A DNA stretch of 63,936 nt, counting the filler, from Octopus bimaculoides (lineage: Eukaryota): assembly GCF_001194135.2 (NCBI RefSeq). It is 4 parts of 3 records of this genome, joined end to end, with 100 filler letters (N's around TTAATTAATTAA, not from the genome) between each part and the next. Parts side by side here need not be neighbours in the genome. Positions count along the whole stretch, not along the records: positions 1 to 11,855 come from NC_068983.1; positions 11,956 to 32,599 come from NC_069003.1; positions 32,700 to 59,422 come from NC_068983.1; positions 59,523 to 63,936 come from NC_069010.1. One strand, 5' to 3'. Position numbers and translations under genes: made by a program. The notes under the pieces are model-generated. The model did not search any database. It saw only the letters and a program-made list of their open reading frames with translations, and was not told the origin of the DNA. Positions 4,502 to 63,897 of this stretch are shown here, one piece after another (position 1 is the stretch's first letter; each line of letters starts with the position of its first letter).

Positions 4502-4767
4502 ACTTGTTTATTACTGTTCTTATTCTAACTCATGTTCATTGTCTGGAAATCTTTCGCTACTCATCTGTGACCTCTTCAGCGACACTTTCCACCTTCGTAT
4601 GTGCTCTTCTTCCGCTTATTCCATTCTCACACAGTCACAAGAGAATGGAATAAGGAGAGCAAGAGTACACACGAAGATGGAAAGTATCGCTAAAGAGCTC
4701 ACAGATGTGTGACGAAAGATTTCCGGAAAATAGACAGGAGTTAGAATGAGAACAGTAATAAACGAGT
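4502..4767. repeat. Fold-back inverted repeat: 127-bp arms, 12-nt loop; Penelope-like terminal repeats in inverted orientation
   Basis: 4502-4628 is the reverse complement of 4641-4767, with about 20 mismatches in 127 by manual alignment. Each arm carries a hammerhead-like motif. Confidence 0.85.
4540..4585 (-). ncRNA. Type I hammerhead-like motif (left arm of the fold-back)
   Basis: Minus strand: tgtcg CTGAAGA ggtcacagatgagtagc GAAA gattt C cagaca. Core intact, helix III AGATTT near-palindromic, helices I and II imperfect. Confidence 0.5.
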
Positions 4768-7186
4768 GAAGAACGAATATATAGTGCGTGTGTTTATTTA
4801 ACAAAACAAAAAATACATTTCTTTCAACTGTTTCAATACACGGTATCACATCAGGAATATATATATATGTATTTCGTTTTTGTATTTGGACGAAAATAGA
4901 AAAATGATAGAAATATAATGTGTTGGTATATCTCAGGCAATATGAAATTATTATTAAGGTTATGCTATTACAATGATGATGAAAGAATAACATTTTTAAT
5001 AATTCCGCAATACTTACCTCCCGTGAGTATTAAAGGGAAGTAACTGTGATAATGTATTGAAATATAATTAACCACAGAAATAAATTCATATTAATGAATG
5101 CCTTTATTTAACAGAAATTTATTTTCGAAAGGATTTGTTGAACAGATTCAATAAAGAAAACACTTCTTCCCGGAGGAAGTAAAAAGTTAAAAAACTTGTA
5201 GGATTTAACAGTGTATTATAATAATTCAAACTAATACGTGATGTTAGCAATGTTGGCAGAATTATCAGGATATCAAAAAAAAAAAAACTTCACGGTATTT
5301 ATTCCGACTCTTTTATCTTCTGAGTTTGAATCATGCCGAGCTTAAATTTGCCTTTCAGGAACTCCACCCGTCAAGTACTCGAATCAGTGGTATCGCCTTG
5401 CTCCGTAACCTCAGAATTGCTGGCTTTATTGACTAAATTAAAAACAATTATTACCAAATTTGTAAATTTTATAAGGAGAAAGAAATGCATGCAATGGTAT
5501 AGCATAATATGATATACTCCTGCACGAATTTTATTATTAGAAAATAAGGAAGGCAAATTTTTTATTATCTGTGGAATATAGGTCAATTCTGGTATTTTAC
5601 TGCACAAAACTGAATATAATTCAGATTTAAATGTGGCTATAGTGAATTCAGAAAATTTTTTTGACTAATTTTTGTCATTTCAGATCGGCATTCTAAATTT
5701 TGACTCGTATATCTTTTCTCTGCAATAATGCTTCAATGGACATAAGCCAAGATTTTTTATTCAAGTTATTTCCCTTACAATAGAAAACTGTTAATTCGTA
5801 TTAAAAGCTATGGTAAGTGCCTCCAAAGTAGGTTAGCTTGGTTTTAGCATCGCAAACTTCTGAACCATTCTTTAACTCTACAATATTCTAGTTACTTACA
5901 GTTTTTGTTTACCCTCAAATCAGTTCTTATTAAGCAGATCTATGATCAAGGCGTTCCACCCTCGACCAACCTATCATATTTTCATGTAAAATATTCAGGG
6001 CTGCTACAATTTATAGTGTGTAGAGGTTTCATTGTTGGCTTGTGTAATCGTTGCCTAAAGCTTTTCACGCCCCCTCTTCCACTTGAGAGAGGTGAGATCA
6101 GCGTAGTTAACGCTGGTGCTGGGTCTGGGGGGGGGAGGGAAGTGGATACAGTATGGGCGAGAAGTCGGGATGGGAGGTGGAACTGGGAAAGCCTGGGTTG
6201 GTATAGTACGTGATGGGCCAAATCCGAAAAGCACAACTCACTGTCGAAGAGGTGGAAAAGGCCGAAAGATGAGACAATGTTTGTGAGCCACTGTTTGGCG
6301 TATGGTAGTGAGTAACAGCATCCCAGTTGAGTGGCCTTTCATTGGATGTGGTTTTGGATGTCAGTTCATATGTCAGCAGCGCCACTAACAGTGAGAGCAG
6401 TCTGTGGATCTCACCATATCATCAAAAAGAGCAAATAGTCGTGAGGGTTTTTTCTGAACAGCAACTTATTTATCTTAGCATATCTAAAACTGCATCACAA
6501 GCATGCAGTTTTGATTTTGATGAGGATGTGAATTCATCAGGAGGAGTCTTTAGTGATGGTGAACCCTAGTATTTGTAACGATCTCGAGGGTTCTAGTTGC
6601 ATTTTACTCAATCTTACAGTTGCGGTGTAAGGTGCTGTTGTTGATTTACTGCAGTGAACAAAGTCCGATACCAGATATTTTACTAGTATTATAAACAGTA
6701 TAAGTAACTGACAGTTTGGTGTCATGTTAAAAATACTTTGAGGGTTCCTCTGTTACTAAATGCTGGTTCTTTATTTAAAGCCATTTTATTCATTATATTA
6801 AAAGTCCTGGCGGAAGGATGAGAGTCAAGGTATCGTATTCTATTTCCTCTGTATATTTGATGGTACTTCAGTTGGTTGTTTCCGTCATCAACAAGGCACT
6901 GTTTCTATTTCCACGCTACTTAATTTTCGTTGAGTTTGTTCACCAATCAGAAAATGTTGTTCGGGCACCAAATCACTTCTAAAAAGATAGACCTTCGATG
7001 AAAAGCATTTCAACCGTGATACTTGAGGGATTTTTTTCCACTGCTATTTCTAACCAGTGACTCCTAGAATTTCCAAAACTGGTTCGATGAAAACGTATAA
7101 ATCACCAACGTTTGTTAATACTGTGATGATTACGACGATCAGGTTTTTAGCAGTATTTAACGTATGAAATAATTCATTCCCTATTC

Positions 7187-7220
<34 letters not shown>

Positions 7221-8634
7221 TTTCTAACGCTACTTTATCACGGGTAACTTTATGACGAGAGGAATTAAATCAGTAACGATATATCGGCTCAGTCTTTAAT
7301 GCCGATTTTGCTTTCAGTAGTTAATAATTGCTCCTACCCATGAATAATCTCATACAGTAAGGTGAGCTTGGCCGTTGTCATTCAACTGTCTGCCGCCGAC
7401 ACAGTATATTACTTGTAACGATAAATAAACCTCTCTATGTATTACAATAATCAGCGATCATATATGCAAATATTCATTTATTACTGAATTACAAAATACG
7501 TCTCAAAAATAACTGTAAAACTAGCTGTACCGTTGCAATAGAGTACTGTATGATTGGAGAAACGATTTGGCCGAGTCGACGGAATGCCAAAAAACCTATC
7601 AAAGAGATCGGTAGTTTGTATCTTGTCAATGATGCTATATTTGTTTTGTGGTCATTGCAAACTTTGAACAGGTATGACAAACATCACGGCGTTTTACATT
7701 CACTGAATGACACAAAGAAGATTAATAAGCACTGTCATAGTTGTTGTTGCTGCTGCTGCTACTGTTGTTGTTTAATACCATTTAAGGTCTGATTTAGCAG
7801 ATCTTTTGTCAAAAGCATTTTAGCTGCGAGCATTCTGCCTTTTTATGGCTTATATAGTGTGATTTAAGGGAGATTTGCTTTCGATTACTTGTAAGTTGAC
7901 GAACTTTTCTCCATTGGTTTACAGAGAACCTTGTTGGTTCGTGCACTGATCCAGGTAAGCCACGACGGTCTGTAGAAGAAATAAGATATTGTATAAGTAA
8001 CGGAGGTTTCGTTAACCTTCAGTACTGAATTAATGCAACCATTATCACTTAAAGAAGGATGGATTCTAGTAGGACCACCTATATAAGAATGAACGGTTTT
8101 AATGGTTCCCAATGTCCCGATGGGTTATGGAAGGTACGATTGTAAAGATGAATCTATCAGTGATATTCTTCTTCTTTAGCCATTGTCCTGAGATGCAGGT
8201 CACTTACAAAAATTCTCTACCCTTTCCTTTCCTGAGTCATCCTAGAAGTCCTTTGCCTCTTTGACATTCACCTGTAGGGCTCTGTACAAAGTACTTTTTT
8301 TATCAACCTCTTTTACATTTCCCTTGAAAATTTCATGAAAAGCCTGCCTTGTAATGTTATTTAATGGTTTGTGTAATGAATGTCAAAACCATTCCCGGCT
8401 GCTTCAATTTATCCATTGTTTAGCAAAGAGTTGACGGATTCGTCACCAGCTAACAGTGTTACCAAAGGATTCTTCCTAAGTTATCGTTCGTGAAGATCTG
8501 CACTTTCTTGATTGTAGTTTCAGTAGTGCCTCAGGATTCGCACCTATAAAGTAACACTTCTTTAACGTTCTATGCAGTCCACGTAAATTAAGAGTGATAA
8601 GCAGATAATTAACGTAACTCTACCTATCTATCTG

Positions 8635-9382
8635 TGGAGGCGCAATGGCCCAGTGGTTAGGGCAGCGGTCTCGCGGTCATAGGATCGCGGTTTCGATTCC
8701 CAGACCGGAATGAGTGTTTATTGAGCGAAAACACCTAAAGCTCCACGAGGCTCCGGCAGGGGATGGTGGCGAGCCCTGCTGTACTCTTTCACCACAACTT
8801 ACTCTTACTTCCTGTTTCTGTTGTGCCTAACACCTAAAGCTCCACGAGGCTCCGGCAGGGGATGGTGGCGAGCCCTGCTATACTCTTTCACCACAACTTA
8901 CTCTTACTTCCTGTTTCTGTTGTGCCTGTAATTCAAAGGGTCAGCCTTGTCACACTGTGTCACGCTGAATATCCCCGAGAACTACGTTAAGGGTACACGT
9001 GTCTTTGGAGNNNNNNNNNNGCCCAGTGGTTAGGGCAGCGGTCTCGCGGTCATAGGATCGCGGTTTCGATTCCCAGACCGGAATGAGTGTTTATTGAGCG
9101 AAAACACCTAAAGCTCCACGAGGCTCCGGCAGGGGATGGTGGCGAGCCCTGCTATACTCTTTCACCACAACTTACTCTTACTTCCTGTTTCTGTTGTGCC
9201 TGTAATTCAAAGGGTCAGCCTTGTCACACTGTGTCACGCTGAATATCCCCGAGAACTACGTTAAGGGTACACGTGTCTTTGGAGGGCTCAGCCACTTGCA
9301 CGTTAATTTCACGAGCAGGCTGTTCTGTTGATCGGATCAACTGGAACCCTCGACGTCGTAAGCGACGGAGTGCCAACAACAA
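8635..9382 (+). mobile_element. SINE family A (tRNA-Arg-like head): two near-identical copies across a 10-N gap
   Basis: Head ggaggcgcaatggcccagtggttagggcagcgg...ggtttcgattcc has A/B boxes, and the tail ends gagtgccaacaaca. The first copy has an internal ~100-bp duplication (8731-8928). Confidence 0.9.
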
Positions 9383-10125
9383 ATCTATCTATCTATCTAT
9401 CGACCGGGAACTAGAAAAATTCTCGTGGGTGCCTTCTGCATGAAAAATGTATAAGTCCAGACTAACATTCACAATGTAACCAGTATAAGTTATACCTTCA
9501 ATTAAAAAAAAAAAGTCAATTTTTATCAAGGCCTATTTCTTAGTCTATCTTTCACTCTCCTTATTCGTTTTTCGTTCTGTTCCTCCCGTCTCTTTGTTTG
9601 TTTGTCCTTCTGTGTTCTTCAATCCACTTCAATATACGTTTCTTTCTATTTTATATATATTCTTCCCCTGCCCCACAAACTCGCAACTGACACACATACA
9701 TATATCCACATTTCTTCTCCCAAACACTAATTCTCCACTTCTGTCTTTTCCATTTCTCTTTTTGTTTGTTTCTTTCATACATATTTCTAACATCGTTACA
9801 ATCTCATTCGCCCATTCATTCCAGCGCATTACCGCTTTTTCTTTCTTTTTTTCCTTTTTTTTTCTACCTTTATCTCCCCGTTTTCTCTTACAAATGACAC
9901 TAAATCATTCTCGCAAATTATACGCAATTTCTCTTTCAATCCAATTCTTTCTCCTACGTACACATACCCTTTCTTACCCTCTACAGCACTATCAATTCTG
10001 AATGAAAGCAATTTTCCACTGTTTGTTTAACTACAACGTCTTCAAAAGCAAACAATTTAGTTTTAGAATACACACACACACACACATGCATGTATGTATG
10101 TAGGCATGTTTGTGTGTATGTGTAC

Positions 10126-10170
<45 letters not shown>

Positions 10171-10205
10171 TATATGTATGTATGTGTGTACGTGTGAGTG
10201 CGTAC

Positions 10206-10261
<56 letters not shown>

Positions 10262-11531
10262 ACCCTCCCAGTTGTGCCGTATAAAAGATGATTTAATAAT
10301 AAATCATCTTTTGTACGTTTGTGGTTGAAGACTTTTTTAATCCACACACGCATTCGCATAACCTATTAACAAATCTCCTTTTTCTTTCATTTAATAAATA
10401 AATAAATCAACAACAAATAAACAAGACAGGTTCAACCCACTGAAACTTAAGGAATCATTGTTCAGTACCAAAATGGTGTCCACAACACGAAGTTGTTGCG
10501 GAAAAAGCTATAATTTAATTTACTCGACGGTCGGTTAACCTTTTATCTAGAGTCGTTTTATTATATTAGAAATCAACATTTCAAGTAAACAAAACGATCG
10601 TCAATTATATTGTGCAGCTACCAAATACGATGATGAAGCGAACCTGTACACACTAAATATGCATACCTCTTGATGCCTGTGGTCAGAATTTCGACTGAGG
10701 AGACTGTTATTTATCGAAATGGGTACACTGTTAGCAGTCTAATTTGCTGGGAAAAACGAGTTAAAATAGATATCTATATAATAATCTGCTGGTTCGTTCG
10801 CCTGTTATACATTAGTTAGTTAGAGAGGTGGGGTGGAGTGAGTGAGAGGTGGAGTAAGAGTGAGAGAGAGAAGTGTAGAAAGAAAAGAGGAAGAAGTAAA
10901 GAAAAGTGATTAATGTTAATACGCTAAGAAGTGAAGTACGAGAGAAAAAGACGACGAGATGAAAAGTGGGAGAGAGAAGTTTTAACGACGTGGGGAAGGA
11001 ATACTTACTACGTAGTTAAAAGTTAACCGAAGGGAAAGGTAGATAAGGGGGTAGGGAAGGCAGTTATATTGAGAAGGAGAGGTGGTGGTGGTGTGTTGAT
11101 AGTAAAAAAATTTTTTTTTATAGCGACCACCGCTTAAAGCATGCACATAAATGCAATTATTTATCGTCTGCTAGCTTAAAAAATTGATGTTTGTTTATAA
11201 TGGTTAATTTAGCCTAAACTCTGGATTCGCAAGAAATACGGTTGGAAGCTGCTCGAGAAAGGTTGCACAGATATAGTGCACGGATCAGAGAGGAACAGCG
11301 AGAAAATATAATAAAAAAGAGGAAAAAGACAACATTGACGGAGACGTGAGGAAATGAGTGTAGACGAACGTCAAGGATATTTAAAGAAAGCTAAACTGTG
11401 AATGCTATGAAAATGCAAACCATCCTTTCTTTCTTAAACAGGTTCTCTTAATTTTTACCATTCCGTGGAATTTCCACGGATCCCACTAGTTTGATGATAA
11501 TTCGATAATTTACATATTCAGTCTTAATACG

Positions 11532-11745
11532 TTTCTTATTTCTTTATTGCCCACAAGAGGTTAAACATAGAGGGGACAAACAAGGACAGACAAAGGGATT
11601 AAATCGATTGCGTAACTGGTACTTAATTTATCGACCCCGAAAGAATGAAAGGCAAAGTCGACGTCGGCGGAATTTGAACTCAAAACGTAACGGCAGACGA
11701 AATACCAATTTCTTTATTGCCCACAGGGGGCTAAACACAGAATGG
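11532..11745 (-). mobile_element. SINE family C
   Basis: Reverse complement of ctgagttcaaattccgccgaggtcgactttgcctttcatcctttcggggtcgataaa...tagccccttgtgggcaataaagaaat. Other copies are near 30880-31460, 35250-35350, 36860-36990, 54170-54330 and 56745-57230. Confidence 0.85.
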
Positions 11746-11955
11746 TACAAAACAACTGATTGGGATCAGTAATCCGTATGGTTTACATAAAATATGACTT
11801 TAAAAATTATATAAAATATAAAAAATCGAATGACATTAACAGTACATTAGACAACNNNNNNNNNNNNNNNNNNNNNNNNNNNNNNNNNNNNNNNNNNNNT
11901 TAATTAATTAANNNNNNNNNNNNNNNNNNNNNNNNNNNNNNNNNNNNNNNNNNNN

Positions 11956-12000
<45 letters not shown>

Positions 12001-12659
12001 TGGGGTTGATTTGTTCAACTGAAACCCTTCAAGGCGGTGCTCCAGTGTGGCCACAGTCTAATGACTGAAACAAGTAAAAGATTAAAGATAAAGGGATTTC
12101 TTTTTATTTATACATGTTTTATTTATACATGTTCTTTGAGAAGAAATCTAACTTCAAGCTACTTTTTTACGGATTAATTTTTACACGGTTTTCTAAACCT
12201 GAGAAAAATAGGGTTGTAAATTTTGATTTTGCACCCCTGCCCCGCCCACTCCATCTCTGACCCTGACCAAAAATTAAACGTTGATGATTAGGGGCTTGGC
12301 AAAAGAGCCCAATAAAAAAAGAAGTATGAGACTGAGGTCAAACTGTGCTTCTAAAATCCATCAAAATGGTGCTTCAGTATGGTTGCATCGCAGTGACCGA
12401 AATAAGTAACCGTGAAAAGGATAACTGGAAGAGATTAAAATGATGTGGAATTTAGCTGAAATTTCTAGAAGAAACTTCCAGAATTAGGAGAGAACAGGAA
12501 ATGTTGAATTGAGGCCAGGAAACTGTGAAGAGAAAATGGCGGCCTGTGAATCTGTTGGTTGTTTCTTGTTCTTTTTCACAAGAACAAATATATTGATCTC
12601 CGGTGAAAGAGAAGCGATTACACTGGGTAGCTTTGATTTCCTTCGCTTGCTTGGTCCTT

Positions 12660-50949: not shown

Positions 50950-51227
50950 ATAAATATCTTCTCACTAATAAATTTGAATACCTTCATCATGAAATGGGCT
51001 TGAATCATGTACAATTAGTTCAATGGCCACAAATATTCCGAACACGCCTTTTCAAAATTAAGGAACGGCATCAATTTTTGAAATACCTTAAACGAAACCA
51101 GTATGACCCATGCAAAGAGAACTATGTATCATTAAAAGCTTTGGTTACTCAGACTGATAAAGAATTTTGCACAACTATTGCTAAATCTTCTACAGCTGAG
51201 TTTAATCAATTTCTAAAAACATTGTAA
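50950..51227 (+). CDS. MTERF3: MTERF3 coding exon 5 (last)
   Basis: tttcag|AT. PQIFRTRLFKIKERHQFLKYL...QYDP..ENYVSL...FCTTIAK...FLKTL* is the MTERF3 C-terminus. All phases join to give 1401 nt (466 aa plus stop). Confidence 0.95.
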
Positions 51228-51286
51228 TTTAAAGCATGTATATAGGCAAATTCTTAGAAAAGAATGTCAAAGCTTATTAATATTTT

Positions 51287-51292
51287 AATAAA
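51287..51292 (+). terminator. Candidate polyadenylation signal of MTERF3
   Basis: AATAAA 60 nt after the stop, followed by a T/GT-rich sequence. Confidence 0.5.
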
Positions 51293-52139
51293 TAACTTTG
51301 AACTTAGATTTTTTTTTGTTTTTTCTTTACTTGATGTTCAGGTTATATCTCTTGTTGTTTATAGTAATGCATAATTCAATGTTTAGACAATAGAGAAAGC
51401 AGCAGGGAGTGATTAGTAAGGACTTGGGTTTGGAAATGAAGATTTTTAACAAAACAAGGTGCAAGCATGGCTGCGTATCACGTTGGACAATTGTCTTCTA
51501 TTGTAGCCTCACACTGATCAAAGCCTTGAGTGGATTTGGGAGAATGAAACTGAAATGAACTCATCATGTATATACATATCTATGTGTGTGCGCGCATGTA
51601 TAAATGTCTCCAGTGTTAACATTGTATCATCATCATCGTCATCGTTTAATGTCCCATTTTCCATGCTGGCATAGATTGGACAGTTTGACAGGAGCTTGGC
51701 AGCCAGGGAGCTGTTCTGACTCCAGTTGTCTGTTTTGGCATGATTTCTGTGGCTGGACCCTTCCTAACACCAACCACTTTACAGAGTTAGCTGGGTACTT
51801 TTTATATGCCACCAGTATGGGTACATTCATGCAGCAATGGCATGAGTGCATTTTACATGGCACCAGCACCTGCAAAGGACATGCCTATATGTATGGATGA
51901 CTGATTTTACTTAGCTTGACATGTCTTCTCAAGTACACCAAATTGCCACAACCCCCAGTCCCTTGTCATTTCCTCAGTGAAGCTCAACATCTGAAGATCC
52001 TTTCTCGCTACTTTGTCTCACATCTTCTGGGTTTACCCCTTCCACAGGTCCCTCACCATCTCACAGGCAGAGGCATTCATTTCCAATCTACTTTGTAAAA
52101 CATCTGGCCATGGGGAAATATTACTTTGCTTAGAAACAG

Positions 52140-54060
52140 ATGAGTGTTGGCAACAGGAAGAGCACCTGGTATGATAATGTTTTGGAAGAACATGATTCAC
52201 AGAAATACCTAAGAAAACTCAGAAACCTTATCGATGAGCTAAGGAAATGTGGCAGAATACAAGTGCAGTTCAACAAGACAGGCAACCTGTATAATTTTAA
52301 TATTGATCACTACAAGAATATTATATGTAAGAAGCTTAATAAGGGATATAAAACTATGCCATTTTCCATCTTGGAAGGACTCAGAACTGTTGAGGACCTG
52401 GTATTCAAAACTCTGTCTACCTAAACAACCTCAGATTACCTTGAAGGACCATAAACTGAATTCCTCCTTTAACTCTTTTACTAGGTTGATTAGTCCATCC
52501 AAATCTGACATAGGTCACATTAACAAAATCATTATTTTTTTATTATTATGCGCCCTTTTAAAGCCTAGCCAGGCTTATGGGCCCGGTTTCTGTGTTCCCC
52601 CAGCTGGATGGGACACCAGTCCATCGCAGCGTTACTCAAGAACAGGAAGAAAGAGTGAGAGAAAGTTGGGGTGAAAGAGTACAACAGGGGTCGCCACCAC
52701 CCCCTACCAGAGCCTTGTGGAGCTTTAAGTGTTTTCGCTCAATAAACACACAATGCCCAGTCTGGGAATCGAAACCGCGAGTCCACTGCCCTAACCACGG
52801 GGCCATTACGCCTCCACAACAAAAGCATTACAGATAGGATATTCCCCACATGGAGAAACCTTGTGAAATTAGATCTTTAGTTGGATAAACAGATACTGTT
52901 GACTGATTTAAAAATTAACCTATCAAAATACAAACAAAATTTATGCAGATAGATATTGAATCCTATTAATCCTGTACTTTTTAATAAGGCTTTAATCTTC
53001 ATCATGAAGAACTCTTTATCTAGGAAGGATGTTGATATAATTTTAGCAGCTAGGAAAACAGTCAATTTAGATTGACAAATTGTGGGCTTGTAAAAACAGG
53101 TTAGAAAACTTCAAAACTACGGGCACAAGTGACTGAGGGCCCAAGTTATTGATGTGGTAGATCTGTACATATTGCATAATATTAAGTGTGTCTTCACTGA
53201 TATAGGAGGTGGACTGAAAGAGTTGATGCCCTACTCCTATTCTGTAGGTTTAGCAAAGTTGACCTAGAACACACAACTGAAAGAATCAGGAATATTTTCA
53301 GTAGTAATGGACTATCTGTTACTATGGATAGGGACATTATAATGACACAGATGTAACGCTGACCTCACTATGGGTTTGTAGTCTTACCACAAACACAGTA
53401 CATGAATAGAAAGTTTAATCAACCAAGAGCCATCATCAAATCCATAGTAAATAGTGTATCCACAAGAATATCTAGACTATTGGCAGTAATATCCTAATGC
53501 AGAATGCCCAATACTATAATGACACACTGGGTATGTAGAGAAGATCTCTCATCTTCCAACAGGGTGCATGCACTTGTTCTACCCACCACCTCCAGAAGCC
53601 ACTTAAATCAGAATGTACTAGATTTGGTCTTACATCAGATAGCGATAAGATAGATCACCATGGCAATGGGTTACAATGTTTACATTCTGCAATTGAAGTT
53701 GTGAACAAAATAGATCTCATACAACCCCTTTTAGTACCCTGTCTTAGATGAAGGATCACATCCAACACCATTAAATCCAATAAAGAGATGAATTTAGATC
53801 TTCCACATAGAAAGTATAAGAATAGGCTACATAAAAGGAGAACAGTTTGGTTTACCTCACCTTTGTGTGGAATATTGCTAGAGATATACGTGGCATCTTC
53901 TTCAGAGCCCTTGAATACCATAAAATATTCAACAGACACAATATGAAATTATCTTACTCAACCACACCAAACTTGATGCAAAATATAGCTGCTTTGAATA
54001 ACAGGAAACTGAACCCTAGGACATACAGGGACCCAGCACAGCTTCTGGTAAAATGTTAAC
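52140..54060 (+). mobile_element. Decayed Penelope-like element RT (Neptune-like)
   Basis: Broken frames: QFNKTGNLYNFNIDHYK, PQITLKDHKLN...RLISPSKSDIGHINK, FMQIDIES, IIKSIVNSVSTRISRL and HKIFNRHNMKLSYSTTPN. These are collinear with PLE motifs (DKT.NLY; ITLKDHK; RLINP.KS; FDI..FYPS; HKIFNRN.VKVSYSC). Confidence 0.8.
52540..52817 (-). mobile_element. SINE with family A head but a different 3' module, inserted in the PLE
   Basis: The head matches family A, but the tail ggactggtgtcccatccagctggggg... differs. Near-perfect TSD aacaaaa(t/g)catta at 52522-52534 and 52818-52830. Confidence 0.85.
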
Positions 54061-55495
54061 CCCAGTTTGGTTCAACACTACAGTGGCTCCGAAAGGCAGC
54101 CTGCAAAGGAGCATATGGTACCTACAATTCAGTTCCTAATCTAGGTACAAGGCCAGAAATTTCGAGGGAAGTGAGTTAGTTGATTACATTGACACCAGTA
54201 TCACATTGGTACTCTACTTTATCAGCCCTGGAGATATAAAAGATAAAGTTGACCTTGGTGAGATTTGAACTCAGAATATAAAGATCTAGAACAGATAGTG
54301 CTAAACATTTTTTTTTTTTTTCTAAATCCTTAAATGATTCTATGAGTGCCACGTTTGGATGTGTAATAAGATCTAACAGCATGTTCTGGTATTATAAAAG
54401 ACTCCAGAGAAGTGTATTGGCAGATCATTAGAACATTAGAAAAAGTACTTTGCAGTATTTATTCCAAATCTTGCCAACCTCAACCTGACCTTTTTCATCA
54501 CTCCACAGTCAAATAAAAAATGTGCCTGTCCAATCCTAGGGTTCACTCAACTGACTAATCCCCTTCCCTAAAAACTGTTAGCCTTGTACCAAAACCAGAA
54601 ATGCTAATTACACCTACTCAGTGAAGCACATACATCACTGTAATTACTAAAGTACTGATGAGTGATTCACTAAGTAAATGTACAGGAGTTGTAAAAATTA
54701 GTATATAAGTGCACTTGTGGAAATTACCTCATAAAAAATAAATTAGTGCCCAAGGTGCCATGCAGTGGGACCATGTGCAAGTGTCTTCTATTATAGCCTC
54801 AGGCCAACCAAAGACTTATTAGTAGATTTGGTAGAAGCCCCTAGTGTGTGTGTGTAAGAGTCTTTGTGCCTGTTTGTCCTCACCACTGCTTGACAACCAG
54901 TGTTGATGTGTTTACATCCCCATAACTTAGTGGTTCAGCAAAAGAGACTGCTAGAATCAGTACCAAGTTTAAGAAAATAATTCTTCAGAGAGGTACCCCA
55001 GTATGGCCACAGTCTAATGACTAAAAACAAGTAAAAGTTAAAGGATATTTAAGTAATAAAGCATCAAAAATAATTATGTTGTGAGAAAAAGATATGAAAT
55101 GAATTGATAATTTCTTTCAGTGATTAGCAGTAACTGATTTTATTAGTGAATAAAATTATAGTTGTAATTAAATTATCACTGCAAGTAAACCATTTTAGGT
55201 TATGAAATTTACATAAATTTATTTATTCATTTTTTTTGATTCATGGTTGAAATAAATTAATTGAATTATAAAAAAAAATTACATTATTTACTGATATATG
55301 ATTTACATGTATTTTACTAAATATATCATTTTGACTTGCATCCAACAACAAACATCTAAGAGATAAATCACAGAATTAACACAAGAGATTTCCTCCTCGT
55401 TTCCTCATCAAATTAATTATTACAGATTTGTTAAATATCTATTACAACCAATGAAATAACTCTTACATGGAACAACAAAACAATGGCACAGTATA

Positions 55496-55756
55496 TTACG
55501 TCTTTAAGGTCAAAGTCCTGCTAAAGGCATTATGAGAGTTGGATTTCCTAGTGGAGGCAGGAGCTGTCTCTGGTCGGTAAATAGCTGGAAATTGTTGTCT
55601 GAACCAAATCTCATATTCTTCAATTGTAATATCAGTAATTTTTGCTCGGCAAAATTCTATAGCAGCACTGATGTCAGGACTGCATATATCCCAAGGTTCC
55701 AATGTTGAGAGGACTTTCAGGAACTTATAAGCACTTAACTTCTCACCAAATTTCAC
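55496..55756 (-). CDS. CCDC60: CCDC60-like, last coding exon
   Basis: ttcag|GTG. FLKVLSTLEPWDICSPDISAAIEFCRAKI matches, from memory, the CCDC60 C-terminal motif LLKVLQDLRIWELCSPDIAVAIEFVREHI. Confidence 0.85.
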   Translation of the reverse strand: MKFGEKLSAYKFLKVLSTLEPWDICSPDISAAIEFCRAKITDITIEEYEIWFRQQFPAIYRPETAPASTRKSNSHNAFSRTLTLKT

Positions 55757-56623
55757 CTGAATGTGACATTACACAATTGAATATACATATTAGATTGTAA
55801 TTTAAAAGTATTTTTTGAAAATGAAAAAGTACATTGAATTCTTTTTTTAGCTTGAAAGTTATATGAATTAATCAAAGCTCTTTCTTGAAGGCAACACAGG
55901 GATAAGATTTCAAAATTATATATTCTTTTTATCAGAATGTTTTTTTTTTTTTAGTTAGCATCCATTTTTTTGACCTAACAGAGATGACAGGGTTTTAACA
56001 AATTAAAAGGTTTACATATTTTAATGGAATCAGTTATTTTTTTTAAGTTGGATACACCTCCCTCTCATTACGGGTTAACCTTAAAGCAGTTATAAAACCT
56101 GTTGTTATTTTTAGAAACTGAGGCAATTCGGGTTTACAAGAGGTAATTGTCATCTGATGACATTGCAAAAAGTAGATTAAATAATTGAGAGACAATATAG
56201 CAAGATGAACAATAACAAAAAGAGAAAATATATAATTAACACTTTACTATTTCATTGATATCAATAACAAAAAAAGAAAATATATAATTAACACTTTAAT
56301 ATTTCATTGATATCAATAATACATGGCAGGCTATTAATAAATATGCATATGGAGTCATTTATATATTTCATAAGAAAAACTCAAACCCATATAATTGAAA
56401 GAGTTACATTATTATCAAGTTTGTTATTTGCATTTATTTATGTACTTAATGTATGCCTTCCATTTCTGGAGAAAATATCACTGATACAAACTTATAACTA
56501 TATAATCAATAAATCTGTATGTCTAATATATATATATATGTCTATTAAATATTTATTTTAACTTGCAGTGGTATTTACAACCCAATGAAGTTAGAAAAGA
56601 ATAAGAAAATATACGATACTTAC

Positions 56624-56714
56624 AAAACTGAATTTGGAAAGCTTATGAAGTATTGCTTTATAATACCATAGAGATTTTAAGGTTGACGGAATTTTCTCCT
56701 GAAGTTCTACAAAC
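56624..56714 (-). CDS. CCDC60: CCDC60-like internal exon
   Basis: catcag|G...TTT|gtaagt. (W)FVELQEKIPSTLKSLWYYKAILHKLSKFSF; 91 nt, phase 2 to 0. Confidence 0.85.
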
Positions 56715-58479
56715 CTGATGGCAATAACAATAACGTTTTTAAATTTTGGCACAAGCCAGCAATTTTTTTTCTTTTCTTTTTTGTGAGCTACTTGATTACT
56801 TAAACTCCAGTACTTGGCTGATAATATATTTTATTGACCCCCAAAAAGGATGAAAGGCAAAGATAACATTGGTGAAAAGGTTAGAACTTAGAATGTGGAT
56901 AGCCAAAAGAAATGCAGCTGAGCATTTTGCTTGATACACTAATGATTCTGTCAGCTTGCTGACTTAATAATAATAATAATCCTTTCTACTATAGGCACAA
57001 GACCTGAAATTCAGAGGAGGGGGATAGTCGATTACATCAACCCCAGTACTTGACTGGTACTTATTTCATCGACCCCAAAAGGATGAAAGGCAAAGTTAAC
57101 CCTAGCAGAATTTGAACTCAGAATGTAATGTAGAGACAGACGAAATGCTGCTAAACACTTTGCCTGAGCATGCTAACAACTCTGCCAGCTCACCACCTTA
57201 ATAATCAATTACATTTGTACAAGAGTACAAGCTTCTTGGGGGAATGGTGTAGTAAATTTAATCAACCCCAGTGGTACTTATTTTATTGATAGGTAGAGGA
57301 AGTGAAGTTAAAAGGCAAAGCCAACCCCAAGAAAGAGTTAACATTTAGAGTACACATTATGTGCACTTGCCTAATAATGTATCCTTATCAGAGTCCACAT
57401 CTGCTGCCTTCTCAGTCTTTGATATCCACTCTTCTCTCCATCAGTTATCTCCTTATCACTCACTCCCTATCTTTCAAGTCACTCTATCTCTCTTCTATTC
57501 ATCTTCACAGACTTGTCACCTTGAGTGAATGAACACATCAGAGAGCAGTGGGGAATCTCTAGTCTTAGGAGATATAAGGAAACCTCACCAGTGGTGGCAA
57601 CATGATAAAATGTACTCAGTGCACACAGTAAAATAGTTGGCAAACAAGCAGGGACAACATGATCTTACTGAGGAATGATAACCTCTTTAGTGTTTGTGCC
57701 ATGATAAAATGAATCCAGTACACTTTGTAAAGGAGTTGGTGATAAGAAGAGTGTCCAGTTTTAGGGATCAAGCCAAAAATGAAAAGTACCAGCAAGACAG
57801 GATCCTTTGAACCATCTTACATGGCAGTAACTCTCAACAGGAGCTGGCTTGGACCATGGCAACTATGGTTCAACCCATGCCAATATGGAAAGCAAATGTA
57901 AAAATTATGATGTTGATAATGATGAAAGCCAGGGTTTGGACAACTTGTAAGTAGTAGTTCAAGAAAAGACTATTAAAACTGAGGTTTTTTATAAACCTGT
58001 GTTCCTTGCAGCTGTGAAATACAGCACTTTCATTTATAATAGGCATGGAGGCTTAAACAAGCTAAATATCTTATCTAAGAAGAGTGCCTGCAACAAAGGA
58101 AACAGAGGTTCAGAACTTCATCAAGTCTATCACTTTTTTCAGTAATAATTATGTTAATTTGCAACTCACAACTATCATTCGACGAATTCCTTAAATCTTT
58201 AATTAAACATCACATTAACCCATATGTTTTAATTTATGACTTTTCACATCATAATCATCATATTACTGCAGCCACTGCCACCATCATCCTTCATCACTTC
58301 TCCCTCCTCCTCCTCCTTTTATGTCCACTTCCCATGCTAGTATGGGCTGGACAGAAAATATGGAATGCCTCACGAATTTGAATGCCATCTATGTACATTA
58401 GCTTTACAATAGGTTACTCTTTTCCAATAGCTATGAAGGTAAAAAATATAAATTTATAATATTAGAAATCTCAACTCAC

Positions 58480-58623
58480 CAATTATTATCTGGAACAATC
58501 TTTTCATCAAATTTGTTGAACTGAGATACTGTTTTTTTACGCATTTCATTAAGGACATGGCGATAACTGAAATGGTCCCCTGATATTGCTTGATACTTGC
58601 TCTGACAGACTAGCAAATTTTCT
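58480..58623 (-). CDS. CCDC60: CCDC60-like internal exon
   Basis: ttgcag|A...TG|gtgagt. ENLLVCQSKYQAISGDHFSYRHVLNEMRKKTVSQFNKFDEKIVPDNN; 144 nt, phase 2 to 2. Confidence 0.82.
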
Positions 58624-58725
58624 CTGCAATAATGAAGGAAATTCAAGCAATTCTTTTACATAAATATCTTTTGAGAAAACATGTTGAATTGAGTAACATA
58701 TCTACAATAAATAGGCTTTAATTAC

Positions 58726-58848
58726 TTCTCTATTTTCTCTAAAGTATCATGCAAAGAAAAGGCTTTGTCTTCTTTTACATCTTCAAATTTTTGACGCAAT
58801 AACTGGATGAGATTTTCTTGGTGATGCCTGGATTTAACTTCAGATGAA
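58726..58848 (-). CDS. CCDC60: CCDC60-like internal exon (upstream exons not identified)
   Basis: ttgcag|T...AA|gtaatt. LRQKFEDVKEDKAFSLHDTLE resembles CCDC60 MRAKF...GFCLQDKME; 123 nt, phase 2 to 2. Confidence 0.82.
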
Positions 58849-59149
58849 CTGCAAGTAGAAAAATGAAGAGGAGTAGGCAGTATTAAAGCAACTGTGACAG
58901 ACTGGAGTGATTGAATTGTTATAGACAATACTCATAATAGAAAAGATACAACAACTTTATTTTCCTGGCAGATGTTTCAGAAAGAAACAGCTATACTAAT
59001 GGCTTTTAGAAATGTAGGTCTGGACAACTAATATTTTTTAACTCCTAAGTGTTTGAAAAATACTTAAGTTCTTTCATAGGTCAGAAACACTAAATAGAAA
59101 AATACAGAGATTATGAATCTGGGAAATATATATATATATATGTATATAT

Positions 59150-59420
59150 ATGAAGACCAGGAAAGCCCCCGGCCCATCAGGAATCACTGCAGAGATGCTC
59201 AAAATATCTGGCAGTGACTATAGCCTAGTCACCCGTATTACGAACCAGGTGATACACGAAGGAGTCATACCCAATGACTGGTGTAGCAGCATCATAGTCA
59301 ACTGCTACAAAGGTAAAGGTGACGCTTTAGATACAAATAATTACAGAGGCATCAAGCTGTTAGATCAGGTTATGAAAGTTACAGTGAGGGTCATAGCCCA
59401 ACTAATTAGGGAGCAAATCA
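59150..59420 (+). mobile_element. RTE LINE reverse transcriptase N-terminal fragment
   Basis: KAPGPSGITAEMLK...IPNDWCSSIIVNCYKGKGD...NYRGIKLL. Runs into a gap. Confidence 0.9.
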
Positions 59421-59641
59421 ATNNNNNNNNNNNNNNNNNNNNNNNNNNNNNNNNNNNNNNNNNNNNTTAATTAATTAANNNNNNNNNNNNNNNNNNNNNN
59501 NNNNNNNNNNNNNNNNNNNNNNATATATATATATATATATAAATATATGTATATATATGCATATATGTATATATATATATATATATATACACAAACACAC
59601 ACATACATATATACATATATATATATAAGTTATATATATAT

Positions 59642-59677
<36 letters not shown>

Positions 59678-59859
59678 TGTGTGTGTGTGTGCGTGTGTGT
59701 GTGTGTGTATATATGTATACATGCTCTTCTATTATGTGAGAAGCCATGTAGATCCTCCACAGCCAGAAACCTGTTCTGCTCAGGTCCCTCTCTGCCTTAC
59801 TCGTTAACATCACATCTCCTAGCATAAAGCCGCTTTCCTCTCAACAGTAGCCCTGTGCA

Positions 59860-61075
59860 GTCAAAGAGGATGTTAGACGTGCAAAATGCATGGTGACTCC
59901 AGAAGTGCTGGTGCCACAAGAAGAGAAGAAAAAAGACCATCTAGTCCACTCTGTAAAGCAGTTGGCATTAGGATGGGCACCCAGCTATTGAAACCACGCC
60001 GAGGCAAATACGGAGAGCGATGCAGCCCTTGAGCGTGTTGGGATTGGCCAAACTGTCCAACCGATATCAACATGGGAGACGGATGCAAAAAGATGACCGT
60101 GCCGGTGGCACATAAAAAGCACCATTTGAGCACGATCGTTTCCAGCTTTGCCTTACTGGTGGCATGTGAACAAAACATTGGCTGACTTCTGTGCAAGTGG
60201 CAGATAAAAAACACCATTTGAGCGTGGCGGTTGCCAGTACCGCCGGACTGGCCCTCATGCCGGTGGCACGTAAAAAGAACCCACTACACTCTCGGAGTGG
60301 TTGGCGTTAGGAAGGGTATCCAGCTGTAGAAACTCTGCCAGATCACATTGGAGCCCAGTGCAGCCATCCGCTTTGCCAATCCCCAGTCAAATCGTCCAAC
60401 CTATGCTAGCATGGAAGGCGGACGTTAAATGATGATGATGATGTATATATATGTATATATATGTATNNNNNNNNNNNNNNNNNNNNNNNNNNNNNNNNNN
60501 NNNNNNNNNNNNNNNNNNNNNNNNNNNNNNNNNNNNNNNNNNNNNNNNNNNNNNNNNNNNNNNNNNNNNNNNNNNNNNNNNNNNNNNNNNNNNNNNNNNN
60601 NNNNNNNNNNNNNNNNNNNNNNNNNNNNNNNNNNNNNNNNNNNNNNNNNNNNNNNNNNNNNNNNNNNNNNNNNNNNNNNNNNNNNNNNNNNNNNNNNNNN
60701 NNNNNNNNNNNNNNNNNNNNNNNNNNNNNNNNNNNNNNNNNNNNNNNNNNNNNNNNNNNNNNNNNNNNNNNNNNNNNNNNNNNNNNNNNNNNNNNNNNNN
60801 NNNNNNNNNNNNNNNNNNNNNNNNNNNNNNNNNNNNNNNNNNNNNNNNNNNNNNNNNNNNNNNNNNNNNNNNNNNNNNNNNNNNNNNNNNNNNNNNTATA
60901 TATATATATATCGGAGTGGTTGGCGTTAGGAAGGACATCCAGCTGTAGAAACTCTGCCAAATCAGATTGGAGCCTGGTGCGGCCATCTGGTCCACCAGTC
61001 CTCAGTCAAATCGTCCAACCCTTGCTAGCATGGAAGGCAGACGTTAAACGATGATGATGATGATGATGATGACGA
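59860..61075 (+). mobile_element. RTE-type LINE 3' UTRs ending in (GAT)n, two copies around a gap
   Basis: ggagtggttggcgttaggaagg...catggaaggc(g/a)gacgttaaa(t/c)gatgatgat at about 60290-60445 and 60910-61075. Confidence 0.75.
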
Positions 61076-62539
61076 TGATGATGATGATTATGATGATGAT
61101 GTATACATAAAAACTCAAAGTCTGACAATGAACCAATTTTACGAGAAGCATGGGCAAGCAAAAATTTAAGTGGAAGACATTGGTGCAAATATTGTGACTT
61201 TTATTAAATAAAAAAATATCAAAATTTGTCAAAAATTTCAAAAAAAATCAAAAATGTTCAAAGTGCGTTGCTTCTATCACCAAACAAGCCTGGAATATTT
61301 TTTTAGGGGGGGAGCGGAATCAATTGACAAAGCTTTGATACAATAATCAACGGTCAAGCGCTGCAAGAAAAAGATGGCATAGTCACATTGTGACTAACAA
61401 ACATGTATGTGTATATGTATCCATGTATATATCTATATGTGTGTGTGTGTATATATCTATGTATATATATGTATATGTGAGCATGCATCTGAATGCATAT
61501 ATATACATGTGTGTGTCTATATGAATATATAATACTTATGCGCAATATTGATGACATATATATACATATGTGTATCATACCTGTATATATGTATGATGTA
61601 GACCATATATATATATATATATANNNNNNNNNNNNNNNNNNNNNNNNNNNNNNNNNNNNNNNNNNNNNNNNNNNNNNNNNNNNNNNNNNNNNNNNNNNNN
61701 NNNNNNNNNNNNNNNNNNNNNNNNNNNNNNNNNNNNNNNNNNNNNNNNNNNNNNNNNNNNNNNNNNNNNNNNNNNNNNNNNNNNNNNNNNNNNNNNNNNN
61801 NNNNNNNNNNNNNNNNNNNNNNNNNNNNNNNNNNNNNNNNNNNNNNNNNNNNNNNNNNNNNNNNNNNNNNNNNNNNNNNNNNNNNNNNNNNNNNNNNNNN
61901 NNNNNNNNNNNNNNNNNNNNNNNNNNNNNNNNNNNNNNNNNNNNNNNNNNNNNNNNNNNNNNNNNNNNNNNNNNNNNNNNNNNNNNNNNNNNNNNNNNNN
62001 NNNNNNNNNNNNNNNNNNNNNNNNNNNNNNNNNNNNNNNNNNNNNNNNNNNNNNNNNNNNNNNNNNNNNNNNNNNNNNNNNNNNNNNNNNNNNNNNNNNN
62101 NNNNNNNNNNNNNNNNNNNNNNNNNNNNNNNNNNNNNNNNNNNNNNNNNNNNNNNNNNNNNNNNNNNNNNNNNNNNNNNNNNNNNNNNNNNNNNNNNNNN
62201 NNNNNNNNNNNNNNNNNNNNNNNNNNNNNNNNNNNNNNNNNNNNNNNNNNNNNNNNNNNNNNNNNNNNNNNNNNNNNNNNNNNNNNNNNNNNNNNNNNNN
62301 NNNNNNNNNNNNNNNNNNNNNNNNNNNNNNNNNNNNNNNNNNNNNNNNNNNNNNNNNNNNNNNNNNNNNNNNNNNNNNNNNNNNNCCGTAAATATAAAAA
62401 GAACTTTTCGAAGTCTATCATACTCTGAGATACAAAAAACATCCACAACCTTTTGTCTAAATAAACCATTATCGTTCCTGAAACTTGTTTTTCATATCTA
62501 TTACGGATTGCTTGAAGCTAACTTTCTTCCTACACTTTG

Positions 62540-62705
62540 CTCCCTGGATCTGAGTTCAAATTCCGCCGAGGTTGACTTTGCCTTTCATCCTTTCGGGGGT
62601 CGATTAAATAAGTACCAGTTACGCACTGGGGTCGATATAATCGACTTAATCCGTTTGTCTGTCCTTGTTTGTCCCCTCTATGTTTAGCCCCTTGTGGGCT
62701 AAACA
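62540..62705 (+). mobile_element. SINE family C, 5'-truncated, little diverged
   Basis: tctgagttcaaattccgccgaggttgactttgcctttcatcctttcgggggtcgatt...tagccccttgtggg. Confidence 0.88.
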
Positions 62706-63123
62706 TAGGGAGCCAATTTTGTCTGACTGTGTAGGACACTGCTCAAAGACTTATGACAGACAGGAACTTTGCTGTGAGCTAGCTAGGGATCTAGGCTACA
62801 ATGAAGGGGATTTCTTCTAAGCCCAAGTCAGCCGATGGCTCTCAACCCCATGTGTTTCACTAAATGTAAATAAATCTTTCCCCAACACACTCTGGTTCTC
62901 CATTGATTTTTTTTGTGTATAGCTTAACTAAAGCTATAACATGTTTTGGTATACAGTCATGAGTACTAACATTTGCTCTGCTAACAGGAAACCTAAGGTA
63001 CCTACAATAATATATATACTGTAGCTTAATATATATTTACTTAAACAGGCAAGGAATAAGTAAATATATATAAATAAATAACTATGTGTGTAATACACTC
63101 AACAGTTAGAATACAATAGTTAT

Positions 63124-63180
63124 TAGCTACAGACTGTTTCTTTGAACATGTAACGATAATGTGAAAAACTCATCAGGCCA
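63124..63180 (-). ncRNA. Type I hammerhead-like motif, probably degenerate
   Basis: Minus strand: tggc CTGATGA gttt ttc acat tatcgttac atgt tc aaa GAA ACAGTCTGT A gcta. Palindromic helix III and GUA triplet; C11.1 is missing. Confidence 0.55.
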
Positions 63181-63585: not shown

Positions 63586-63897
63586 GAAATTTCTGTTTCC
63601 TGTTTTCTTCTAGGAAGAGACAAGACATGATTTGGAGCTCCTAAACGCCTGAAGAGTGTTTAACGAAATCGTTATGTGAGGCGTGCATGAAACAGCTGGT
63701 AGCCAAACAACTATAGTGAATTAACAGTTGATTGGATTATGTAATTAAACCATAACAACCTAGAATTAAGAGGGCTTCTGATATGTATGAGAGGCTCACA
63801 TTCGTTTTGTGTGTGTGTGTGTGTGTGTGTATTCATACGTGTGCAACAGTGTATATCTTAATGTTTCAGTCATTTCACTGCAGCCATGCTGGAGCAG

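What the first reader, a model, noticed from the sequence alone, without database searches (positions are those of the whole stretch)
4502..63180. Several unrelated type I hammerhead-like motifs share one architecture
Seen in sequence: six motifs in five different contexts (4540-4585 -, 4684-4729 +, 28623-28658 +, 29311-29373 +, 49993-50058 +, 63124-63180 -). Each has a CUGANGA-type core and GAAA, then a palindromic or near-palindromic helix III (AGATTT, ACGT, ATTGCAAT, ACCATTGGT, ACAGTCTGT) ending in an NUH triplet directly before helix I. Three have a 4-5 bp helix II base, an internal loop and a further stem, although their primary sequences differ. Established: Penelope-like elements and retrozymes carry type I hammerheads whose palindromic helix III favours dimeric cleavage, and these usually have a short or absent helix II. 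Inference: octopus may host several families with a long, bulged helix II, where the internal loop could supply the tertiary contact.
Basis: partly seen in the sequence, partly recalled or inferred. Interest (0 to 1): 0.8.

Follow-up and report, generated by a model that had tools for sequence, protein, structure and literature searches.

The report
Penelope-retroelement hammerheads with lengthened helix II
The window holds at least nine intact or decayed hammerhead ribozyme motifs, likely left by Penelope-like jumping genes of kinds already known to carry them (one published example is from octopus); only the longer second helix in some of them looks new, and cutting is untested.

Summary
The motifs are real. 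They are not a new shared architecture. Motifs 1-3 are ordinary Penelope-type hammerheads; two have broken cores, and motifs 1 and 2 are the arms of one fold-back. The 9-nt palindromic helix III of motifs 5, 6, 8 and 9 matches published Hydra-clade Penelope hammerheads, including Hydra-1_oBim of Octopus bimaculoides (Craig 2021, File S2). Motif 5 belongs to a family of roughly 10^3 copies; its majority letter restores helix I. What remains new is helix II of 29-36 nt (Hydra table: 12-26 nt). It folds well in motifs 5 and 8, weakly in 4 and 7, and not at all in 6. Motifs 4 and 5 share a 3' flank and carry U1.7 and a 3' loop A, so an internal-loop contact is plausible (viroid precedent) but untested. 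No RNA ends pile up at the motif 5 cut. This scan reached the fold-back Penelope reading before, in two other genomes. Verdict: a modest variant of a known kind.

The parts
4502..4767 (.). Fold-back (inverted repeat, 12-nt spacer) carrying m1 and m2, pointing outward; left arm ends at an N gap beside a (TA)n run
   Evidence: I10; 81% over 269 nt
4540..4585 (-). m1: Penelope-type hammerhead, intact core (C3 4579), extra nt after A9, decayed 17-nt helix II, 6-nt helix III, UUC; helix I broken at pair 2
4684..4729 (+). m2: same family as m1; core has one mismatch (C3 4690); helix II hairpin -4.5 kcal/mol
25177..25300 (+). About 124-bp element between two (TA)n runs carrying m8 (C3 25223, position 17 at 25273; missed by reader): 5-bp helix I, core with U at 3, 31-nt helix II (8 bp, 1x1 loop, 4 bp; -14.2), helix III ACTC-A-GAGT, GUU
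   Evidence: helix III and triplet identical to Penelope-3_HM
28213..28262 (-). m9 (C3 28259; missed by reader): core with one mismatch, 6-bp helix II (24-nt domain), helix III ACTT-T-AAGT, GUC
   Evidence: helix III and position 17 identical to Penelope-6_HM and 14_HM
28623..28658 (+). m3: minimal PLE-type hammerhead (4-bp helix I, extra nt after 9, 4-bp helix II with tetraloop, ACGT, GUC); core has two mismatches, likely dead
   Evidence: pattern as
29311..29373 (+). m4: intact core (C3 29317), 6-bp helix I then U1.7, 4-bp helix II base with a weak distal stem (32-nt domain), perfect 8-nt palindromic helix III, AUA (position 17 at 29367)
29374..29510 (+). 3' flank of m4 resembling the 3' flank of m5; shared 10-nt tail motif 170 nt (m4) and 174 nt (m5) after C3
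49776..50238 (+). Element carrying m5: body about 49920-50240 with an inverted copy of its 3' 104 nt on the left (arms 49776-49877 and 50138-50238, 91%); high-copy family; lies between mTERF exons in sense orientation
49993..50058 (+). m5: intact core (C3 49998), U.U then 4-bp helix II base, 2x2 internal loop, 9-bp distal stem (36-nt domain, -13.3), helix III ACCA-T-TGGT, GUA (position 17 at 50053), U1.7; this copy has a C.A mismatch at helix I pair 2
63124..63180 (-). m6: intact core (C3 63176), 4-bp helix I, 29-nt helix II domain with no stable fold, helix III ACAG-T-CTGT, GUA
63647..63703 (+). m7 (missed by reader): homolog of m6 on the other strand, pointing outward; intact core (C3 63649), 2-bp helix I, 33-nt helix II domain, imperfect 9-nt helix III, GUA
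40944..51226 (+). Host mTERF gene (context): exon stretches at 40947-41846 and about 50951-51226 flank m5
   Evidence: RNA reads on the last exon

Best explanation
These are hammerhead ribozyme motifs that likely come from the 3' ends (pseudo-LTRs) of several families of Penelope-like retrotransposons, left as truncated, often fold-back and partly decayed insertions. Shown: the motifs, their non-random occurrence, the fold-backs, the high copy number of the m5 family and the match of helix III to published Hydra-clade hammerheads. Inferred from published work: in an active element transcribed as a tandem RNA, two copies would pair through the self-complementary helix III (predicted -6.5 to -10.9 kcal/mol as a duplex for m4-m8, no stable hairpin alone). 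The dimer would cut after the NUH triplet and release unit-length element RNA for reverse transcription. m1-m3 are of the ordinary short-helix-III PLE type. m5, m6, m8, m9 and probably m7 are of the Hydra-clade type (4 bp plus a 1-nt centre). m4 has an 8-nt palindrome and shares a 3' flank with m5. In m4-m8 the helix II domain has grown to 29-36 nt. Most likely this is a tolerated apical extension. In m4 and m5 the internal loop may also supply the loop-2 adenine for a contact with U1.7 (about 0.3, inferred). Lone dispersed copies, and pairs on opposite strands, would cut poorly or not at all.
For: Non-random: 3 strict hits, 0 of 1000 shuffles reach 3; 5 hits with <=1 core mismatch against a shuffle mean of 0.062, 0 of 500. 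All 26 Hydra/Repbase rows of Craig 2021 File S2 have a 9-10-nt palindromic helix III. m8 equals Penelope-3_HM and m9 equals Penelope-6_HM there; m5 differs from Hydra-1_oBim only at the centre base; U.U at 10.1-11.1 followed by 4 bp, as in m5, is the Hydra magnipapillata pattern (compared by eye). Outward-pointing inverted arrangements (m1/m2, m6/m7, m5 arms) match published PLE insertions. m8 sits in a 124-bp element between two (TA)n runs, the Hydra target. m5 family: summed contig depth 151k and 37k over 49975-50019 against about 45 and 12 at unique stretches. At 50055 the majority letter makes helix I five clean pairs (12405 of 13853 depth in X1; 14 of 19 and 11 of 14 RNA reads); at 50019 it turns a G.U of the distal stem into A-U (98% of depth); no core change is among the 40 listed rows.
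Against: No motif is linked to a PLE reading frame. The Hydra-like RT remnant at 52134-52542 is a by-eye match, lies 2 kb from m5, and gave no informative database hit, so clade membership rests on RNA architecture alone. No cleavage evidence: no read ends pile up anywhere on the m5 stretch in two RNA runs, about 6% of each read (table 6). The majority letter at 50031 would break a distal helix II pair unless its partner also changes; 173 rows were not shown, so this is open. The 1-nt loss at 50049 that would make helix III a perfect 8-mer is the majority in RNA reads (12 of 18, 11 of 14) but only 390 of 13381 depth in X1 contigs. m4's 8-nt helix III is not in the Hydra table. (TA)n proximity is not general: 4 of 9 motifs lie within 300 nt against 23% of random positions, and m5 is 6.5 kb away. 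Family data exist for 1 of 9 motifs only.
Confidence: 0.78

Rival explanations
1. m4 and m5 are solo copies of non-LTR retrozymes: about 300-nt non-autonomous units that cut themselves out of tandem transcripts and circularise, borrowing a PLE reverse transcriptase.
For: Canonical helix sizes (6-bp I and 4-bp II in m4); a high-copy body of about 300 bp without an ORF; retrozymes exist in molluscs and are argued to derive from PLE pLTRs.
Against: No tandem direct copy of any motif in the window; arrangements are inverted. RNA depth of the whole family is only about 4-5 times that of one mTERF exon, though these cDNA libraries may miss circles.
Confidence: 0.13
2. m5 is a domesticated intronic ribozyme that cuts the mTERF pre-mRNA.
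For: Sense orientation between mTERF exons; intact core and stable helix II.
Against: This copy departs from the family majority at helix I pair 2; it is single, with a helix III that does not fold alone; no read ends pile up at 50053.
Confidence: 0.03
3. The motifs are chance matches in AT-rich repetitive DNA.
For: Descriptors were tuned after seeing the motifs; no Rfam hammerhead hit; m6 helix II does not fold; m1, m2 and m3 fail the strict scan.
Against: 0 of 1000 and 0 of 500 shuffles reach the observed counts; the family majority repairs helix I of m5; 0 of 120 metagenome matches to a similar pattern fold as hammerheads, which shows what chance matches look like.
Confidence: 0.04

Closest known systems
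Hammerheads of Hydra-clade Penelope-like elements, including Hydra-1_oBim of Octopus bimaculoides (Craig et al. 2021, PMC8557442, File S2)
   Same: Type I topology; 9-10-nt palindromic helix III (m5, m6, m8, m9); U.U at the helix II base followed by 4 bp (m5); (TA)n flanks (m8); inverted 5'-truncated copies.
   Different: Helix II domain is 12-26 nt in the 26 Hydra rows against 29-36 nt in m4-m8, with an internal loop and distal hairpin in m5 and m8. No ORF link shown here. Two spike-moss PLE rows flagged non-canonical in the same table have even longer helix II domains.
Minimal and short-helix-III PLE hammerheads (Cervera & de la Pena 2014, PMC4209133)
   Same: m1-m3: extra nucleotide after A9, G10.1-C11.1 in m1 and m3, 4-5-bp helix II, 4-6-nt palindromic helix III, short helix I, opposite-strand pairs 100-700 bp apart.
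   Different: Nothing substantial for m1-m3; m4-m9 have a longer helix III, and m4-m8 a longer helix II.
Non-LTR retrozymes of coral, mussel and axolotl (Cervera & de la Pena 2020, PMC7229834)
   Same: Type I hammerhead in a short high-copy repeat; U.U at the helix II base (axolotl Amex2); dimer cleavage.
   Different: Retrozymes are tandem arrays expressed as abundant circles; here copies are single or inverted and no circle is shown.
Chrysanthemum chlorotic mottle viroid minus-strand hammerhead (Dufour et al. 2009, PMC2632901)
   Same: An internal loop of helix II, with a 3' A pairing to a U of domain I, replaces terminal loop 2; this is the contact proposed for m4 and m5.
   Different: It uses a terminal hairpin loop 1 in a viroid; here helix I is open-ended (type I) and the contact is untested.

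Membership tests
Type I hammerhead ribozyme | Core CUGANGA, GAAA and NUH in type I order | tested here: met
   Intact in m1, m4, m5, m6, m7 (5 of 9); one mismatch in m2, m8, m9; two in m3
Type I hammerhead ribozyme | Helices I, II and III closing the core | tested here: inconclusive
   Met in m4 and m8, and in m5 with the family majority letter; helix II does not fold in m1 and m6; helix I is 1-2 contiguous pairs in m1, m7 and the window copy of m5
Type I hammerhead ribozyme | Self-cleavage after position 17 | not testable with these tools
   No in vitro test possible; no read-end pile-up on the m5 stretch in two standard cDNA runs, a weak test
Type I hammerhead ribozyme | Match to an Rfam hammerhead model | tested here: not met
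   No hammerhead family among 132 matches at E<=5
Hydra-clade PLE hammerhead | 9-10-nt palindromic helix III | tested here: met
   m5, m6, m8, m9 perfect 4 bp + 1 nt; m7 imperfect; m4 is 8 nt; m1-m3 not
Hydra-clade PLE | RT with DKT motif and C-terminal GIY-YIG lacking CCHH, upstream of the hammerhead | tested here: inconclusive
   No ORF recognised beside six of the motifs in three-frame translation (m1, m8, m9 not examined); unlinked remnant at 52134-52542 resembles Hydra-1_Obim by eye without database support
Hydra-clade PLE | Insertion into (TA)n | tested here: inconclusive
   Clear for m8; 4 of 9 within 300 nt of a (TA)6 run against 23% of random positions; m5 6.5 kb away
Penelope-like element insertion | Inverted 5'-truncated copy next to the pLTR; opposite-strand hammerhead pairs | tested here: met
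   m1/m2, m5 arms, m6/m7; not seen for m3, m4, m8, m9
Penelope-like element insertion | Dispersed multicopy family | tested here: met
   m5 only, roughly 10^3 copies from summed contig depth, which the tool warns is no true copy number; other families not tested
Non-LTR retrozyme | Tandem 150-450-bp repeats, each with a hammerhead | tested here: not met
   No direct tandem copy of any motif in this window; rest of genome not available
Non-LTR retrozyme | Abundant circular RNA | not testable with these tools
Hammerhead with internal loop 2 (CChMVd-minus type contact) | Unpaired 3' A of the helix II loop and U at 1.7 forming a reverse Hoogsteen pair | tested here: inconclusive
   Both nucleotides present in m4 and m5; the pair of features is absent in m6, m7, m8 and m9; covariation and mutagenesis not done

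The most novel reading that the evidence does not exclude
The m4/m5 superfamily is a high-copy Penelope-derived lineage whose type I hammerhead uses an internal loop of a lengthened helix II as loop 2, docking its 3' A on U1.7 as the CChMVd minus-strand ribozyme does. Combined with an 8-9-nt palindromic helix III, this would be a fast, dimer-gated ribozyme, with the distal hairpin left free for a second job such as binding the element's reverse transcriptase. I found no such variant reported for an animal retroelement in my searches.
Probability: 0.25. Interest if true: 0.55.

Novelty: new variant of a known kind. Interest (0 to 1): 0.33.

Why it matters
If the extended helix II is conserved and supplies the tertiary contact, it widens the known design range of natural type I hammerheads. 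It would also offer an efficient, testable model for the open question of what PLE hammerheads do, since the minimal ones cut poorly in vitro. Practically, descriptors with short helix II spacers (7-17 nt in one search of Craig 2021) and the Rfam models miss these motifs, so hammerhead counts in this genome are probably underestimates: nine motifs lie in 64 kb. If the extension is neutral, the finding is an annotation of decayed ends of a known retroelement clade.

Tried and rejected
Rfam: no hammerhead hit; the MIR5380 match at 4567-4702 only reflects the fold-back. Protein searches with the Hydra-like RT remnant: none at E<=0.01, none at E<=0.1, four weak multi-stretch hits that I did not examine further, no Pfam family. 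A by-eye idea that the 29-nt block shared upstream of m6 and m7 encodes the end of a GIY-YIG domain could not be tested and is not claimed. Flank comparison of 21 pairs on 2 sides: m1-m2 and m4-m5 (3' side) stand out; m2-m7 (3 of 300) is probably noise; m4 and m5 show no 5' flank similarity (135 of 300) and no primary-sequence similarity over the motif (527 of 1000). Half motifs at 22888, 44747, 48904 and 51552 had no core. Lunse et al. (RNA Biol 14:1499) is not held. Look-ups of earlier findings by place and by sequence were empty.
Full report
SETTING. The window is AT-rich animal DNA with 18 N gaps, many microsatellites and an mTERF gene. No genome is held.

IS IT THERE? All six motifs lie at the stated coordinates. 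The core is intact in m1, m4, m5 and m6, has one mismatch in m2 and two in m3. A strict type I descriptor finds m4, m5 and m6. In 1000 block-wise dinucleotide shuffles the mean is 0.003-0.03 and none reaches 3; dropping the helix II test gives 0.168 and 1 of 1000. A descriptor with a 4-bp Watson-Crick helix III and at most one core mismatch finds five (adding m8 and m9) against a mean of 0.062, 0 of 500; with two mismatches, 6 against 0.55, 0 of 500. These descriptors were written after I had seen the motifs. Rfam returns no hammerhead among 132 matches at E<=5. Helix II folds firmly in m5 (-13.3 kcal/mol, z -4.2) and m8 (-14.2), weakly in m4 (-3.1) and m7 (-4.7), and not at all in m1 and m6. 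The helix III segments of m1-m7 form no hairpin alone; those of m4-m8 pair as self-duplexes at -6.5 to -10.9, while 3-5% of random 8-9-mers from the window reach -6.

HOW THE MOTIFS RELATE. m1 and m2 are the arms of one fold-back, 4502-4767, 81% alike. m6 has an outward-pointing homolog, m7, about 470 nt away on the other strand (alignment score 85 against 24, 0 of 1000). m5 lies in an element whose 3' 104 nt recur inverted on its left (91%), between mTERF exons in sense orientation. m4 and m5 share no detectable primary sequence over the motif (527 of 1000) or upstream (135 of 300). Their 3' flanks do align (score 56, 3 of 3000 shuffles; best of 1152 window tiles apart from three that overlap m4's own flank), and a shared tail motif lies 170 and 174 nt after C3. 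This was one of 42 comparisons and the tail motif also occurs in other repeats, so common ancestry is likely rather than shown. m8 sits in a 124-bp element between two (TA)n runs.

FAMILY EVIDENCE (m5 only). I laid 4 of 24 listed runs on 49885-51230 at 80% likeness. Summed contig depth is 151k (X1) and 37k (X10) over 49975-50019, and 45k and 15k over 50020-50064, against about 45 and 12 at unique stretches. That suggests roughly 10^3 copies; the tool warns this is no true copy number. For the reading: the majority letter at 50055 turns the C.A mismatch of helix I into a C-G pair (12405 of 13853 depth in X1, 2875 of 2988 in X10, 14 of 19 and 11 of 14 RNA reads); the one at 50019 turns a distal G.U into A-U; no core change is among the 40 rows shown. 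Mixed: a 1-nt loss at 50049 would make helix III a perfect 8-mer; it is in 12 of 18 and 11 of 14 RNA reads but only 390 of 13381 contig depth. Against: the majority letter at 50031 breaks a distal pair unless its partner changes too, and 173 rows were not shown. RNA depth over the motif is about 4-5 times that of the last mTERF exon, nearly all from other copies (9 and 7 reads are 99% alike or better). The libraries look unstranded, and no place shows a pile-up of molecule ends. So there is no evidence of cleavage or of an abundant dedicated transcript, from a weak test.

COMPARISON WITH PRINT. Cervera & de la Pena 2014 (PMC4209133; main text parts 1-2 of 4, supplement file 2 parts 1-2 of 3, file 1 not searchable) describe PLE hammerheads with a larger-than-usual helix II (6-8 bp), an extra nucleotide after position 9, palindromic helix III, opposite-strand pairs 100-700 bp apart, and low dimer activity. 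Craig et al. 2021 (PMC8557442; passages, section 11, supplement parts 2-3 of 59 and search hits; preprint passages) tabulate Hydra-clade hammerheads. All 26 rows have a 9-10-nt palindromic helix III, among them Hydra-1_oBim; m8 and m9 equal listed rows in helix III, m5 differs from the octopus row at the centre base, and m5's U.U plus 4-bp base is the Hydra magnipapillata pattern. By my count their helix II domains span 12-26 nt, against 29-36 nt in m4-m8; two spike-moss rows flagged non-canonical are longer still. Dufour et al. 2009 (PMC2632901; passages) show an internal loop of helix II serving as loop 2 in a viroid, through a 3' A paired to a U of domain I. PMC9217987 (passages) places that U 7 nt after the cut. 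m4 and m5 have both nucleotides; m6-m9 do not have the pair. This was noticed after the fact and rests on two motifs. Perreault 2011 (PMC3088659; passages) reports U.U at the helix II base and palindromic helix III in repeats. Also seen: PMC7229834 (parts 2-3 of 6), bioRxiv 10.64898/2026.07.22.740005 (part 1 of 5), and passages of PMC6765202, PMC7761336 and PMC13725137. Lunse et al. 2017 was seen only as a title in a reference list and may bear on novelty. Searches for an octopus or long-helix-II report found no description of a bulged 29-36-nt helix II in an animal PLE hammerhead; the library lacks most subscription papers.

MECHANISM. Shown: motifs, fold-backs, a high-copy family, repair of helix I by the majority letter. 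Inferred from the papers above: these are 3' ends of PLE families; in tandem transcripts two copies would pair through helix III and cut after NUH to release unit-length RNA; dispersed single copies and opposite-strand pairs would be largely inert. Not shown: a link to a PLE ORF, cleavage, or the tertiary contact. I put 0.78 on the PLE-end reading, 0.13 on solo retrozymes for m4 and m5, 0.03 on a domesticated mTERF ribozyme and 0.04 on chance. Two earlier notes of this scan read similar palindromes in other genomes as truncated fold-back PLE insertions; they agree with a reading I had already stated and are not independent evidence.

VERDICT. Observation partly confirmed; interpretation partly supported. 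A known kind of ribozyme in a known kind of element, with a published octopus example. The residual novelty is a lengthened, bulged helix II, well supported in 2 of 9 motifs. New variant of a known kind; interest 0.33.

Noticed in passing
window 52134-52542 (+): Frameshifted stretch that resembles by eye the N-terminal RT region of Hydra-1_Obim as printed; no Pfam or database support; no hammerhead beside it.
   Followed up: partly
window 29663-29815: 153-bp palindrome (73%) between TA-rich flanks. Each arm carries what looks like the 3' half of a hammerhead (GAAA, near-palindrome, GUA) without a core; it shares 17 of 18 nt with 62983-63000.
   Followed up: partly
window 62988-63005 (+): Half motif GAA-ACCT-A-AGGT-A with no recognisable core or helix I, facing m6.
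   Followed up: partly
window 50155-50244, also 29487, 38364 (-), 17783: A tail motif shared by several repeats; summed contig depth here (640k in X1) is about four times that over the hammerhead, so more families or truncated copies share this end.
   Followed up: partly
window 40944-51226 (+): mTERF gene (PF02536), last exon covered by RNA reads.
   Followed up: partly
window 55499-55768 (-): Exon with DUF4698 (PF15769, E 2e-13).
   Followed up: no
window 32816-34300 (-): Broken PIF1-like helicase (PF05970), probably a Helitron remnant (inference).
   Followed up: no
window 37394-37466 (+) and 39286-39357 (-): Two tRNA genes above the Rfam gathering score.
   Followed up: no
window 50290-50640 (+): Another very high-copy repeat in the mTERF intron that dominates RNA depth on the laid stretch.
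   Followed up: no
window 24104-24833: Tandem repeat with a 37-nt period (family D10).
   Followed up: no
window 63644-63690 (+): In m7 an alternative 6-bp helix covers the start of the core in the predicted MFE fold, which could switch the motif off.
   Followed up: no
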